Source: Actinomycetota bacterium
Lineage (GTDB): Bacteria > Actinomycetota > Acidimicrobiia > Acidimicrobiales > AC-14
DNA length: 53,542 bases
NCBI GenBank assembly: GCA_005888325.1
Contig: VAWU01000030.1
Coordinates: forward strand, 80,349-133,890
Reading direction: 5' to 3'
Of the stretch, positions 46,401 to 48,236 are shown piece after piece (the stretch's first letter is position 1; the number at the start of each line of letters is the position of its first letter). A program made the translations under genes and the position numbers. The notes beneath the pieces are model-generated. The model did no database searches. It saw nothing but the letters and a program-made list of their open reading frames with translations, and was not told the origin of the DNA.

Positions 46401-47970
46401 CGTCTTCGCACACGACCAGGCCCCGCCGGCGGCGGGCCAGCAGCCGATCACGTGGAAGAGCACCGACGACTTCCCCGACGACGTGCGCGGTGACCTGCTC
46501 TACACGTGTCCCGACGGCACCGTCTACCCGGTGGCCGTGGGCGTGCGACCGGAAGCGCTGGCGGGCGCGACCGCGTCCTTCGAGCGCAACTTCGACGCCG
46601 CGCTGGCGTGCGAGGGGGGAAAGCTGAACGCGGCGATCACCGACGGCTTCACGCGGGTCCCACCCGATCCCATCGACGACACGCCCGTGGTGTCGGGGCC
46701 CAAGGCCCCCACCGCGGCCACCGAGACCCCGGCGGGGCCGGCCGATGTCGTCTCCCAATTCGACTCGGTGGCGCTCAAGGGCTCGGGCAAGGACCCCGAG
46801 ACGGGTGAGCTCACGGGGAGCGCGCTCGAGTGGTCGCTCACCGCACCCGGGGGCTCGCCCGCGGTCGTCGGCACCGGCACCAGCGTGGACCTCGCCCCGC
46901 CGCTGAGCGGTTGGGCGCCCGGCACCTACACGGTGCGGCTGAAGGCCACCGACCCCGCGGGCGCCACCAACACCGAGGCCACGTCGTTCCGCGTGCGCGT
47001 CGACTGTCGCCGGCGGGTGTGCTCCAACGGCAACCCGGCCGCTCCCGGCGTCGTGCACCCGGTGACGCTGTCGAAGACGGTGAGCCTGCGGGTGAACAAG
47101 CCCGACCCCTGCTCGTCCAACTACGGGCCCACCTGCACCGACCCCGCGGGCTCGGCCACCACGGTGTCGGCCCCGGCGTTCGCGGGTGACCCCGGCGCCT
47201 CGTTCGAGGTGATGCTGTGCAACGCCCAGGCCCTGGCCGAGCCCAACGCGGACGGCTCCGGCGGCGGGGGAGACGTGCTCGGAGGCTGCGACTACGGCAA
47301 CGGCGTGGGCCTGGGACCCGTGGGCGTGCCCAACAGCGGCACCCTGACTCTCGATGCGGGTGGGAACCTCCCCGGAAGCGTGAACCTGGAGATGCCGGCC
47401 AACGCCACGCTCACGCCGCTCGGGGGTGGGGCGGCCACCAACCCGGCCGCGGTCTGCCCGCCCACCACCGCCCAGATCGCCGCGGGCTGGACCTGCATCG
47501 TGCACGCGGCGGAGTACGACCCCGCCCACCTCGAGGCACCACCGCTGGAGGCCTCCTACCGACAGGTGTTCCTGAAGTCGCCCATCCCGACCATGACCTG
47601 TGGCGGCGGGGCGTGCCCGGCCTCCATCGCGACGGGCACGTCGGTCACGCTCAACGGGGTGCAGTTCCCCTGTCGCACGATCATCCCCGACGACCCCACC
47701 ACCGTCGCCTACGACGGATCCTGCACGGGGGCCTGGACCAACAAGACCATCTTGTTGAAGCGGGTGTCGAGCGGGTTGATCGAGGGGGCGGCCATCGTCC
47801 CCACCTCCCAGAGCGCCTCGCCCAACGGGGGCTACACCATCACCTTCACCATGCCCGCGGTGGCGGGACCGGGCGAGACCTACAAGATCGTGCCCCACTC
47901 GCCGACGTGCACGTTCCCGTGCGAGAGCGGCCAGTTCAACGCGGCGGGCAAGTTCTTCCGGCACGCGTAA
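43417..47970 (+). CDS. 1517-aa secreted (possibly lipo-)protein. An N-terminal ~500-aa domain carries a degenerate metzincin-like motif. The centre is a 7-bladed PD40 (TolB-like) beta-propeller. The C-terminal region is Cys-rich.
   Basis: RBS aagagggg. Signal peptide MAKRQSRRRRAAVSVVVLMVAGLV...PAAAAC. AMEIAHTLGAVPENRDDD resembles HEIGHTLG with the first His replaced by Met. Seven repeats of S/AxDGRxVAFxSxAxNLVxxDTNGxxDVFVRDRxxGTTERVSV follow. The C-terminus has paired cysteines. Confidence 0.8.
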   Translation: MAKRQSRRRRAAVSVVVLMVAGLVGPDLPPAAAACDVRPQLRDITANQGVGSYATVARGKQTLVRLYLSLPSCATNGESIAVTGATLTADNGSGLTLNLSPFSPTASITPPAIVGYTQAPALDAPADPKFVLPGSYLTPSYTTASFDVTFRATVNYQAKTSSSATPVAGTATFTTLSSGAPLKVTVEKRTNALRILVVPMGDARQTYASQFNDTDKTTTQKGITTLARLLPVSDTTGDLKSLAGGVRYTITPTLLDLSKPTAAFPQGLLNAAGKFCGKSTNWSSLQPLLSQFLQSWNAANAANPAATADRVLGVVSERVSLGSSDSCAEGYAAVPTVPSTVPANQAWVRVIADTSTVPSMTGALMAMEIAHTLGAVPENRDDDFNKHHSPNIAADVTAPNRGYNVAKRAFLADDRSAMKLSSGAWNNTNVLFEPADWAWIQCQLGATNSQCTVPGTVGTAVGVGADPTFVISGSTDGTPAGTDVVESGWARGTARTDIDPFSTYRLVQRDGANILRDDGVGVAFDDSTHDGGPAGQASTFGLFSVAFPFDTGANTIELWNGQPDAPTSVLLYSRNRTVPPQVTTIDAQAPIAGAVGTQRVSVDSSGAQATAGSDEPSFSADGRFVAFRSAATNLVTGDTNGQQDIFVRDRQSGTTERVSVSSTGAQSNRASAFPAISGDGRYVAFTSAGNLVAADTNTWDDVYVRDRQSGTTERVSVSTGGVGGNNTSTNPSISADGNVVAFHSLASDLVSGDTNSENDVFVRDRQAGTTVRASVSSTGVPGQGGFPAISADGRFVAFQSHSTTLVPGDTNGQPDVFVHDLTTGATELASLSDTEAQGNLVSQQAAISADGRFVAFRSSASNLVTGDTNARDDIFVRDRGGANGGTTERVSVAGAGTQGDGNADFPAISADGRYVAFISTATNMVANDTNGQLDVFRRDRQVGTTDRISVDSSGNQASGVSDTQGNAYMTADGRLVAFFSTANNLVGSDTNGSNDVFAHDQAPPAAGQQPITWKSTDDFPDDVRGDLLYTCPDGTVYPVAVGVRPEALAGATASFERNFDAALACEGGKLNAAITDGFTRVPPDPIDDTPVVSGPKAPTAATETPAGPADVVSQFDSVALKGSGKDPETGELTGSALEWSLTAPGGSPAVVGTGTSVDLAPPLSGWAPGTYTVRLKATDPAGATNTEATSFRVRVDCRRRVCSNGNPAAPGVVHPVTLSKTVSLRVNKPDPCSSNYGPTCTDPAGSATTVSAPAFAGDPGASFEVMLCNAQALAEPNADGSGGGGDVLGGCDYGNGVGLGPVGVPNSGTLTLDAGGNLPGSVNLEMPANATLTPLGGGAATNPAAVCPPTTAQIAAGWTCIVHAAEYDPAHLEAPPLEASYRQVFLKSPIPTMTCGGGACPASIATGTSVTLNGVQFPCRTIIPDDPTTVAYDGSCTGAWTNKTILLKRVSSGLIEGAAIVPTSQSASPNGGYTITFTMPAVAGPGETYKIVPHSPTCTFPCESGQFNAAGKFFRHA
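45262..46419 (+). repeat. seven tandem ~135-nt coding repeats (PD40 blades) inside the large secreted-protein gene
   Basis: Repeats are visible at protein and nucleotide level. The antisense ORFs 45177-45443, 45522-45749, 45810-46139 and 46155-46463 are periodic. Confidence 0.75.
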
Positions 47971-48236
47971 CGGTGCCGCCCGAATCCGCAGCTCGGCATG
48001 TTGCACCTGCCGCGCGCGGCAACAACCTCGCCGCGTAGAACCTCAGGCGTGGCGGAAGACTTGCCCGCCGCGTTGGCGGTGCCACTGGTGCAGCGCAGCG
48101 CGCACGCGGGGGCGTGGGGCACGACCTTGTACGTCTCGCCCGGCGCGGCGGCCGACGGCATGGGGAAGGTGATGGTGTAGGTGCCGTCGACGCCGGCGGT
48201 TTGAGAGTCGGGCACGATCGCAGGCCCCTCGATCAG
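47773..48236. repeat. imperfect inverted repeat. The last ~60 codons of the large gene (47773-47952) are duplicated in inverse orientation at 48057-48236.
   Basis: The minus-strand frame encodes GLIEGPAIVPDSQTAGVDGTYTITFPMPSAAAPGETYKVVPHAPACALRCTSGTANAAGKS. The plus-strand gene encodes GLIEGAAIVPTSQSASPNGGYTITFTMPAVAGPGETYKIVPHSPTCTFPCESGQFNAAGKF. The copy has indels and no start context, so it is a decayed fragment. Confidence 0.7.

What the first reader, a model, noticed from the sequence alone, without database searches (positions are those of the whole stretch)
47773..48236. Inverted partial duplication of the large gene's 3' end immediately downstream
The last ~60 codons of the giant gene reappear in inverse orientation about 100 nt past its stop codon, with roughly 60% amino-acid identity. 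The copy carries indels and no start context. The two arms could pair as a long imperfect hairpin in the transcript's 3' end. Alternatively this marks an old inversion or duplication of an alternative C-terminal cassette. No invertase gene is nearby.
Basis: seen in the sequence. Interest (0 to 1): 0.6.

Follow-up and report, generated by a model that had tools for sequence, protein, structure and literature searches.

The report
Inverted dead stump of gene end
Just past the stop codon of a very large secreted-protein gene lies a backwards, truncated and frameshifted copy of that gene's last 68 codons, which is most likely a dead leftover of a second family gene and not a switchable cassette.

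Summary
The last 68 codons of the 1532-aa ORF (47764-47970, +) recur in inverse orientation at 48248-48044. Identity is 73.7% over 190 ungapped nt, against at most 45% anywhere else in the window, and 42/63 residues match. The copy has one 1-nt deletion and keeps a stop codon at the homologous position.

Homology ends at the stop codons on the inner side and in mid-domain on the outer side. The copy has no start codon and covers only the last six strands of a beta-sandwich domain.

The same frameshifted structure, in the same orientation, occurs in independent metagenome assemblies: L008, L013 and L014 in full, L002 for its inner end only. It is absent downstream of the homologous genes in L003, L001, L005, L006 and L007.

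The copy is about as far from its neighbour (74.5%) as from those genes (75-77%), and it has not evolved faster than they have.

No recombinase, transposase or reverse transcriptase was found among about 37 window ORFs. The longest exact inverted match is 17 nt. Mismatches are not biased toward G-U pairs.

Best reading: an inert 3' remnant of a once-coding paralogue or allele. The predicted long RNA hairpin is a by-product of the repeat. Low interest.

The parts
43372..47970 (+). Giant ORF of 1532 aa from GTG 43372 (an ATG 15 codons in, at 43417, is an alternative start). It has an Arg-rich N-terminal signal-like segment, PD40 beta-propeller repeats, a PKD-like domain and a Cys-rich C-terminal module of about 330 aa with no Pfam, NCBIfam or PDB match.
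   Evidence: the full-length orthologue L004 is 70% identical in protein
47764..47970 (+). Arm 1: the last 68 codons plus the TAA stop of the giant ORF (VSSGLIEG...AAGKFFRHA*).
47971..48043 (.). 73-nt spacer between the two homologous stop codons. Its two halves are not similar as an inverted repeat (11/36, not significant). It is poorly conserved in L002 (27 differences in the 89 nt after the stop). It contains the 12-nt palindrome GCCGCGCGCGGC but no U-tract terminator.
48044..48248 (-). Arm 2, the copy: 67 codon-equivalents plus a homologous TGA stop (48044-48046), with a 1-nt deletion at 48059/48060, five codons before that stop. Conceptual translation: VSTGLIEGPAIVPDSQTAGVDGTYTITFPMPSAAAPGETYKVVPHAPACALRCTSGTANAAGK(-1)FRHA*.
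47880..48215 (-). Mechanical ORF of 111 aa (P0024) that starts at an internal GTG of the copy, runs through the frameshift and spacer, and reads antisense into the giant gene. Gene callers have called it on related contigs, but its tail is interrupted by a stop in L002, so it is probably not a gene.
48249..48441 (.). Sequence beyond the outer edge of the copy. It shows no detectable homology to the giant gene (local score below the shuffle mean). It is the most variable stretch between the window and L008, holding 8 of the 10 differences clustered at 48225-48408, including 2-nt and 1-nt indels. It is therefore non-coding. The signal-peptide-like stretch RRTRARRTVGLVLVVNLMILAPVAS lies in another frame without a start codon.
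47641..47660 (+). Mosaic junction in related assemblies, at the codons for the family-conserved GVQFPC motif, about 105-125 nt upstream of arm 1. L014 is about 67% identical upstream of 47658 and 99.85% identical downstream. L002 is unrelated upstream of 47641.

Best explanation
The downstream copy is an inert gene remnant. It is the 3'-terminal stump of a second member (paralogue or displaced allele) of the same rare gene family, lying tail-to-tail with the intact giant gene. An alternative origin, not excluded, is an old inverted partial duplication of the gene's own end. It spent most of its history as translated coding sequence. It was then cut off in mid-domain, lost any start codon and picked up a -1 frameshift. 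The 190-204 nt inverted repeat and the RNA hairpin it could form are by-products. At 74% identity, with no exact match longer than 17 nt, the two arms are too diverged to recombine efficiently, which would explain why the structure is stable across strains. Shown: the homology, its sharp limits, the truncation, the frameshift, its presence in near-identical strains and its absence from more distant homologues. Inferred: that it was once part of a complete gene, and that it has no present function.
For: 1. The homology is real and coding-derived: 73.7% nt identity against a 45% background maximum, 67% aa identity, GC3 of 94% in the homologous frame, 13 synonymous and 21 non-synonymous codon differences, and a stop codon at the homologous position.
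2. Similarity is confined to the stretch that is coding in the parent. The spacer halves beyond the stops are unrelated, and nothing aligns beyond 48248.
3. It cannot encode a working protein. There is no in-frame start. There is a -1 frameshift, identical in L008, L013 and L014, so it is not a sequencing error. The copy covers only strands 7-12 of an all-beta Ig-like domain (AlphaFold mean pLDDT 67, pLDDT 81-87 over most of the copied part). The 111-aa ORF that crosses it is broken in L002.
4. It is old and not derived recently from its neighbour. Nucleotide identity is 74.5% to the giant gene, 75.5% to L004 and 77.2% to L001, against 78.4% between the giant gene and L004. Third-position identities are all 63-70%. 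In a neighbour-joining tree it is sister to giant+L004 with weak support of about 40%.
5. Its lineage-specific change count and codon-position pattern (14 changes; 4/4/6) match those of the functional genes (giant 13, L004 9, L001 15). This points to long evolution under coding constraint followed by late inactivation.
6. It is lineage-restricted: present in the window, L013, L008, L014 and L002, and absent downstream of L003 (78% nt in the shared segment), L001, L005, L006 and L007.
7. The family leaves such stumps elsewhere. L009 carries an isolated 55-codon 3' fragment (78% identical to P0007) with no other family homology within 6 kb on either side, and P0016, P0022 and P0027 look like decayed copies.
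8. No recombinase, transposase or reverse transcriptase was found among about 37 ORFs of the 53.5-kb window, and there are no Rfam hits.
Against: The copy does not look decayed. It has one indel in 204 nt, no acceleration relative to functional homologues, and most of its unusual residues (GPAI, TFPMP, CAL.C) also occur in intact family members. The only two differences between L008 and the window inside the copy are both synonymous in its frame. That fits ongoing constraint as well as recent inactivation, and two sites are far too few to decide. No second full-length family gene was found to serve as the parent. The origin (truncated paralogue or in-situ inverted duplication) is not resolved.
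Confidence: 0.7

Rival explanations
1. RNA-level role. The giant gene's transcript reads into the copy, and the two arms form a long imperfect hairpin of about 200 bp that acts as a 3' stabiliser, a terminator or an RNase III target. Alternatively, antisense transcription from the copy side regulates the gene.
For: The predicted fold of 47750-48262 is one long hairpin at -336 kcal/mol, z = -12.3 against shuffles. There is no canonical terminator between the stop and the copy, so read-through is plausible. The structure is retained in several strains.
Against: The low free energy follows automatically from any inverted repeat. Of the 50 non-Watson-Crick positions, only 7 (plus-strand RNA) or 9 (minus-strand RNA) are G-U, and 24 of 50 differences are G/C transversions that break pairing. 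The pattern of conservation tracks codons, with high GC3 and a homologous stop, and not pairing. Of the two strain differences in the arm, 48225 C>G breaks a G-C pair with 47787 and 48236 G>A turns a U-G wobble with 47776 into U-A (read from the sequences). The more distant homologues manage without the copy. No Rfam family matches.
Confidence: 0.12
2. Silent alternative C-terminal cassette. Inversion or gene conversion between the arms swaps the last 60 or so residues of the giant protein, as in shufflon-type or 'partial intergenic inverton' variation, here without a dedicated recombinase.
For: The geometry (tail-to-tail, promoterless partial copy next to the expressed gene) is that of known gene-altering inversions, which can lack a nearby recombinase (PMC9881135, introduction). 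The copy still translates into a plausible family sequence. Related assemblies show recombination junctions in the same gene.
Against: The longest exact inverted match is 17 nt. That is below the 20-nt seed and 22-bp repeat used to nominate candidates in PMC9881135 (methods), and below the roughly 20-30 bp usually needed for RecA-dependent exchange (my own knowledge). The outer edges of the arms are no better conserved than the interior. No recombinase was found in 53.5 kb. The four full assemblies share one orientation and the giant-gene arm shows no copy-derived tract; of L002's two differences there, one matches the copy but is also the L004 state. A swap would replace the final strand with a frameshifted tail of about 59 junk residues (P0024). 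The mosaic junctions lie upstream of the arms and do not involve the copy. More distant homologues lack the copy.
Confidence: 0.07
3. A genuine small gene on the minus strand: either the 111-aa ORF 48215-47880, or a signal-peptide plus half-domain protein hidden by sequencing frameshifts.
For: Gene callers called the 111-aa ORF on three other contigs (L008, L013, L014), and its cluster has 6 members. GAGGGG lies 9 nt upstream of its GTG (read from the sequence). A signal-peptide-like stretch sits upstream in another frame.
Against: The frameshifts are reproduced in independent assemblies, so they are real. The ORF's tail runs through the fast-evolving spacer and antisense to the giant gene, and is interrupted in L002. 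The product would be half of a beta-sandwich plus junk with no export signal. The signal-like stretch has no start codon and lies in the most indel-rich segment between strains.
Confidence: 0.03
4. Template and variable repeats of a diversity-generating retroelement.
For: A repeat of about 200 nt covers the 3' end of a large surface or secreted protein gene, with a nearby non-coding copy.
Against: The differences are not adenine-specific: G>C 16, C>G 8, A>G 6, and so on. No reverse transcriptase was found in the window. The repeats are inverted and 26% diverged.
Confidence: 0.01

Closest known systems
Bacterial gene remnants (truncated, frameshifted pseudogene fragments left by deletion or rearrangement)
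   Same: It is homologous to an intact gene, truncated in mid-domain, lacks a start codon, carries a frameshift, and is restricted to one shallow lineage. Other orphan or decayed fragments of the same family occur in other genomes (L009, P0016, P0022, P0027).
   Different: It sits immediately tail-to-tail with a surviving family member, so it forms a long inverted repeat. It shows surprisingly little decay: one indel and no rate acceleration.
Gene-altering programmed inversions, shufflons and 'partial intergenic invertons' (Mu G/Gin, R64 shufflon, phase-variable hsdS; PMC9881135; bioRxiv 10.1101/2023.03.11.532203)
   Same: A promoterless partial copy of the 3' end of an expressed gene lies in inverse orientation just downstream.
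   Different: There are no long exact inverted repeats (maximum 17 nt). No recombinase was found in 53.5 kb. No orientation variants were seen among the available assemblies. The alternative end is out of frame. Homologues lack the copy.
Silent-cassette gene conversion (Neisseria pilE/pilS, Borrelia vlsE; from my own knowledge)
   Same: A non-expressed partial copy lies adjacent to the expressed locus, with conserved blocks interspersed with variable ones.
   Different: There is a single cassette. No mosaic tracts from the copy were seen in the expressed gene across strains. Identity blocks are very short.
Tandem inversion duplications and template-switch (snap-back) rearrangements at quasipalindromes (mechanism known from Salmonella and E. 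coli genetics, from my own knowledge; template switching at quasipalindromes is described in PMC7202029)
   Same: The mechanism produces an inverse-order partial duplication with a short asymmetric spacer, which is a possible origin.
   Different: Such duplications are normally young and near-identical. Here the arms are 26% diverged, and the copy is no closer to its neighbour than to genes from other lineages.

Membership tests
Gene remnant / pseudogene fragment | Significant homology to an intact gene of a defined family | tested here: met
   73.7% nt against a 45% background maximum. The family profile hits P0024, which is the copy ORF, at E = 8.8e-16.
Gene remnant / pseudogene fragment | Cannot encode the complete domain or protein (truncation, no start codon, frameshift) | tested here: met
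   It covers only the last 6 of about 12 strands, has no in-frame start, and has a -1 frameshift reproduced in three other assemblies.
Gene remnant / pseudogene fragment | Relaxed selective constraint (accelerated rate, even spread of changes over codon positions, indels) | tested here: inconclusive
   Lineage-specific changes are 14 (4/4/6) against 13, 9 and 15 in the functional genes. There is only one indel. This fits recent inactivation but does not prove decay.
Gene remnant / pseudogene fragment | Dispensable: absent from related lineages that keep the intact gene | tested here: met
   L003, L001, L005, L006 and L007 have no inverted copy downstream.
Gene-altering programmed inversion (shufflon-type) | Inverted repeats with long exact identity serving as crossover sites (22 bp or more from 20-nt seeds in PMC9881135) | tested here: not met
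   The longest exact matches are 17, 16, 11, 11 and 11 nt.
Gene-altering programmed inversion (shufflon-type) | Site-specific recombinase encoded in or near the locus (usual, not absolute) | tested here: not met
   Pfam scans of about 37 ORFs across the 53.5-kb window found none. ORFs under about 100 aa were not all scanned.
Gene-altering programmed inversion (shufflon-type) | Both orientations or hybrid alleles present within a species or population | tested here: not met
   The window, L013, L008 and L014 are collinear, and so is L002 over the part it covers. These are consensus assemblies only, and read-level data are not available here.
Gene-altering programmed inversion (shufflon-type) | The alternative segment yields an intact in-frame protein end | tested here: not met
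   A 1-nt deletion five codons before the stop gives a tail of about 59 unrelated residues.
Diversity-generating retroelement | Adenine-specific differences between template and variable repeats, and a nearby reverse transcriptase | tested here: not met
   G/C transversions dominate the spectrum, and no reverse transcriptase was found.
Intrinsic terminator / structured 3' element | Compact GC-rich stem followed by a U tract, or a conserved structure with compensatory changes | tested here: not met
   No terminator-like site in 47700-48700. There is no wobble bias in the mismatches, no Rfam match, and the spacer is not conserved in L002.
Silent-cassette gene conversion | Tracts of cassette sequence appearing in the expressed gene among clonal descendants | not testable with these tools
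   This needs read-level or time-series data. Among the available assemblies the expressed arm differs only in L002, at 2 sites; one matches the copy, but it is also the state in L004.

The most novel reading that the evidence does not exclude
The stump is kept as a recombinase-independent donor. Rare homology-driven inversion or gene conversion between the two arms, perhaps together with the exchange point at the GVQFPC motif seen in L014 and L002, reshuffles the C-terminal half-domain of a giant secreted protein in an uncultured high-GC soil bacterium. The lack of decay in the copy would then reflect selection on its coding potential.
Probability: 0.06. Interest if true: 0.6.

Novelty: new member of a known kind. 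Interest (0 to 1): 0.22.

Why it matters
The direct importance is small. The case shows that a striking inverted copy of a gene's end next to a surface or secreted protein gene need not be a phase-variation device. It also gives concrete tests that separate a relic from a cassette: the length of exact repeats, the substitution spectrum, the limits of homology, orientation across assemblies, and distance to orthologues. Two side products may be worth more. The first is a rare, uncharacterised Cys-rich C-terminal module of about 330 aa, with 26 cluster representatives among 1.84 billion proteins, attached to S8 proteases, PD40 giants and small secreted proteins. The second is a possible recombination hotspot at its conserved GVQFPC motif.

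Tried and rejected
- The genome-contig scan with the C-terminal alignment found nothing. A second scan with the full-length alignment found only a 38%-identical N-terminal relative in a Mycobacteriales MAG (L012). No isolate or MAG genome of this lineage is therefore available.
- The look-up of encoding contigs with the exact giant protein found nothing on record.
- The P0002 and P0004 contigs could not be read because their sample files are too large.
- A search with the divergent 5' part of L014 found nothing.
- An apparent extension of the copy's homology to 48362 with P0006 disappeared on realignment, and the nucleotide score was below the shuffle mean.
- I tested whether L002's spacer is the flipped version of the window's spacer. 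It is not; it aligns in the same orientation at about 70%.
- Downstream synteny among the window, L003 and L001 is not shared, so no ancestral arrangement can be inferred.
- Pfam, NCBIfam and PDB sequence searches of the C-terminal module gave no hits.
- Foldseek against the PDB gave only weak Ig-like matches, with E of 3e-3 or worse and TM about 0.35.
- The Rfam scan of 47500-49300 gave no hits.
- The diversity-generating retroelement idea was rejected on the substitution spectrum.
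Full report
**1. The observation**

The window has 69% G+C. A 1532-aa ORF runs from 43372 to 47970 on the + strand. The repeat finder reports an inverted repeat with arms 47764-47953 and 48059-48248: 190 nt, 74% complementary, ungapped, 105 nt apart.

A gapped local alignment extends the match to 47764-47966 versus 48248-48047. The only real indel is a 1-nt deletion in the copy (TT to T, at 48059/48060). After that deletion the copy still reads ...FRHA followed by TGA (48044-48046), exactly opposite the gene's ...FRHA TAA.

Sliding the 190-nt arm along both strands of the whole window gives 73.7% identity at the copy. The next best position anywhere gives 45% (mean 28.8%, sd 4.1%). 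In the homologous frame 42 of 63 residues are identical. The copy has GC3 of 94% with GC1 and GC2 near 62%, which is the composition of a coding sequence in this genome. Codon differences are 13 synonymous and 21 non-synonymous.

**2. It is not an artefact**

The minus-strand ORF across the copy (47880-48215, 111 aa) is in the public protein collection as P0024. Contigs from independent metagenome assemblies carry the structure.
- L013 (ENA) is 100% identical to window 45858-48672.
- L008 (JGI) is 99% identical over 1269 nt.
- L014 (ENA) shows 2 differences in 1317 nt from 47659 onwards.
- L002 (ENA) is 96.7% identical in the last 330 nt of the gene and contains the inner 17 nt of the copy at its contig end.

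L008, L013 and L014 carry the same -1 frameshift, since L008 holds P0024 exactly and L014's ORF translates to the same sequence. All contigs are collinear with the window over the parts they cover.

**3. Limits of the homology**

On the inner side, similarity stops at the two stop codons. The two halves of the 73-nt spacer are not related as an inverted repeat (11/36 identical; local score not above shuffles, p of about 0.12).

On the outer side it stops sharply at 48248/48249. The next 150 nt on the minus strand give a local alignment score below the shuffle mean against the corresponding part of the gene.

That outer limit falls inside a domain. An AlphaFold model of the last 168 residues (mean pLDDT 67, with pLDDT 81-87 over most of the copied part) is all-beta, and its only PDB matches are weak Ig-like ones. 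The copy corresponds to the last six strands only.

No ATG, GTG or TTG lies in frame upstream of the copy. A signal-peptide-like stretch (RRTRARRTVGLVLVVNLMILAPVAS) lies in another frame, also without a start. It sits in the segment with the highest density of substitutions and indels between the window and L008, so that segment is non-coding.

The 111-aa ORF P0024 starts at an internal GTG, runs through the frameshift and the spacer, and ends antisense inside the giant gene. In L002 its tail is interrupted, so it is not a conserved gene.

**4. Age and relationships**

The C-terminal module of the giant protein belongs to a very rare family. A word-indexed search gave 5 proteins. A full profile search of 1.84 billion cluster representatives gave 26.

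A metagenome scan gave five loci.
- L004 is a full-length orthologue, 70% identical in protein, with nucleotide alignment from 43531 to 47966.
- L003 is the same lineage, with 4.2 kb of downstream sequence.
- L005, L006 and L007 are about 55% identical over the module.
- L001 came from P0003.

None of L003, L001, L005, L006 or L007 has an inverted copy downstream. The downstream genes differ among the window, L003 and L001.

Over the shared 204-nt segment the copy is 74.5% identical to its neighbour, 75.5% to L004 and 77.2% to L001. The neighbour and L004 are 78.4% identical. Third-codon-position identities are all 63-70%.

The copy keeps residues shared by L004 and L001 that the neighbouring gene has changed (VST, AAPGE, HAPAC, SGTANAAGK). 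In a neighbour-joining tree of 18 family members it is sister to giant+L004 with weak support of about 40%.

Changes unique to the copy (14; 4/4/6 by codon position) are no more numerous or more evenly spread than those unique to the functional genes (13, 9 and 15).

The copy is therefore not a recent duplicate of the adjacent end. It looks like sequence that evolved under coding constraint for most of its history.

**5. Tests of the mechanistic readings**

- *Recombinase.* Pfam scans of about 37 ORFs covering the window found hydrolases, oxidoreductases, ABC transporters, methyltransferases and several cNMP-binding proteins. They found no recombinase, transposase or reverse transcriptase.
- *Crossover sites.* The longest exact inverted matches are 17, 16, 11, 11 and 11 nt. 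This is below the 20-nt seed and 22-bp repeat used to nominate gene-altering inversions in PMC9881135. The outer edges of the arms are not better conserved than the interior.
- *Orientation.* All available assemblies have the same orientation, and the expressed arm shows no copy-derived tract. These are consensus sequences only.
- *Outcome of a swap.* It would give a frameshifted tail of about 59 residues.
- *RNA pairing.* The fold is one long hairpin (-336 kcal/mol, z = -12.3). Only 7-9 of the 50 unpaired positions are G-U, and 24 of the 50 differences are G/C transversions. No terminator-like site and no Rfam family was found. The spacer has 27 differences in 89 nt in L002, whose coding part is 96.7% identical.
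- *Diversity-generating retroelement.* The differences are not adenine-specific.

**6. Interpretation**

The simplest account of all this is a gene remnant. It is the last 68 codons of a second family member that once lay tail-to-tail with the giant gene, or less likely an old inverted partial duplication. It is now cut off in mid-domain, without a start codon and frameshifted.

Similarity has survived only where both sequences were coding. This argues that the copy was translated for most of the time since the two diverged, and that inactivation is comparatively recent.

The family leaves similar debris elsewhere. L009 carries an isolated 55-codon 3' fragment, 78% identical to P0007, inside a 191-kb contig, with no other family homology in the 6 kb fetched on each side. 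P0016, P0022 and P0027 look like frameshifted or decayed copies.

I put about 0.7 on this reading, 0.12 on an RNA-level role of the hairpin, 0.07 on a recombination cassette, 0.03 on a real small gene and about 0.01 on a diversity-generating retroelement.

The main weakness of the relic reading is that the copy shows so little decay. Recent inactivation and ongoing constraint cannot be separated with 204 nt and a handful of near-identical strains.

**7. Comparison with known systems**

The architecture resembles gene-altering programmed inversions. The 'partial intergenic invertons' or shufflons are described as flipping out homologous domains (bioRxiv 10.1101/2023.03.11.532203). PMC9881135 notes that such loci usually, but not always, have a nearby recombinase.

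Four defining features were tested here and not met: long exact repeats, a recombinase, orientation variants and an intact alternative end. It therefore should not be filed there.

It fits the ordinary category of bacterial gene remnants. The unusual detail is that the remnant abuts a surviving relative and so forms a long quasi-palindrome. Template-switch or tandem-inversion-duplication mechanisms could have created such an arrangement (my own knowledge; quasipalindrome template switching is described in PMC7202029). The divergence of the arms means the event, if it was that, is ancient.

**8. Verdict**

This is a real feature that has been correctly seen. Its most interesting interpretation is not supported, and interest is low (0.22). 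The side observations are listed separately: the mosaic junction at the GVQFPC motif, the rare uncharacterised C-terminal module, and a palindromic operator-like motif shared by neighbouring genes.

Noticed in passing
window 47641-47660; L014 1-215; L002 1-392: There is a sharp mosaic junction inside the giant gene at the codons for the family-conserved GVQFPC motif. L014 has 79 differences in the 211 nt up to 47658 (about 67% identity, still in frame), then only 2 differences in the next 1317 nt. L002 is unrelated upstream of 47641, where it carries an antisense luciferase-like oxidoreductase fragment. The two junctions lie within 20 nt of each other. This is either a recombination hotspot or assembly chimeras.
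   Followed up: partly
window 48416-48486 and 48873-48943; also 43316-43331, 51923-51938, 52330-52345: A 71-nt direct repeat (79% identical) ends exactly at the ATG of two adjacent + strand genes: a small membrane peptide (ATG at 48484; the mechanical ORF is 48442-48627) and a LuxR/GerE regulator (48941-49222). It contains the palindrome GTGTC-N6-GACAC. With up to one mismatch the motif occurs 10 times in the window against 3.6 expected (0 of 100 shuffles reach 10), including just upstream of the giant gene. The window also encodes several cNMP-binding proteins: patatin+cNMP at 41353-43335, ABC ATPase+cNMP at 49963-51294, and a Crp-like regulator at 52498-53196. This hints at a Crp/FNR-type regulon.
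   Followed up: partly
window 46972-47970 (C-terminal module of about 330 aa); P0006-P0020: The Cys-rich C-terminal module has no Pfam, NCBIfam or PDB match and is very rare, with 26 cluster representatives among 1.84 billion proteins. It occurs at the end of S8-type proteases (P0007, P0008), as secreted proteins of about 350 aa with a signal peptide (P0006, P0010, P0014), and on this PD40-repeat giant.
   Followed up: partly
L009 6073-6237: Another orphan 3' fragment of the family, 55 codons and 78% identical to the end of P0007, sits alone in a 191-kb contig between unrelated genes. No other family homology lies in the 6 kb fetched on each side. Its homology starts within about 8 codons of where the window's copy starts.
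   Followed up: partly
window 48225-48408 versus L008: All 12 differences between the window and the 99%-identical contig L008 lie in 48225-48567. Ten of them, including two indels, are packed into 48225-48408, and none lies in 47392-48224. This is either an imported patch or a hypervariable intergenic region starting in the outer edge of the copy.
   Followed up: no
L004 1384-6507 versus window 43372-47970: The orthologue in L004 is 1707 aa against 1532 aa here. The alignment consensus shows an extra block of about 175 residues between PD40 repeats, so repeat or domain content varies between orthologues. The L004 contig ends 61 nt after the stop codon.
   Followed up: no
window 45541-48006 (-) and other long antisense ORFs: Long shadow ORFs lie antisense to the giant gene, for example one of 821 aa. 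These are typical of 69% G+C DNA and are not evidence of genes.
   Followed up: no
P0016 (L011), P0022 (L010), P0027: Several short database proteins from the P0002/L005 lineage look like frameshifted or degenerate versions of the same C-terminal domain, for example with conserved Cys or Phe-Pro residues lost. They could be low-coverage assembly errors or further pseudogenes.
   Followed up: no
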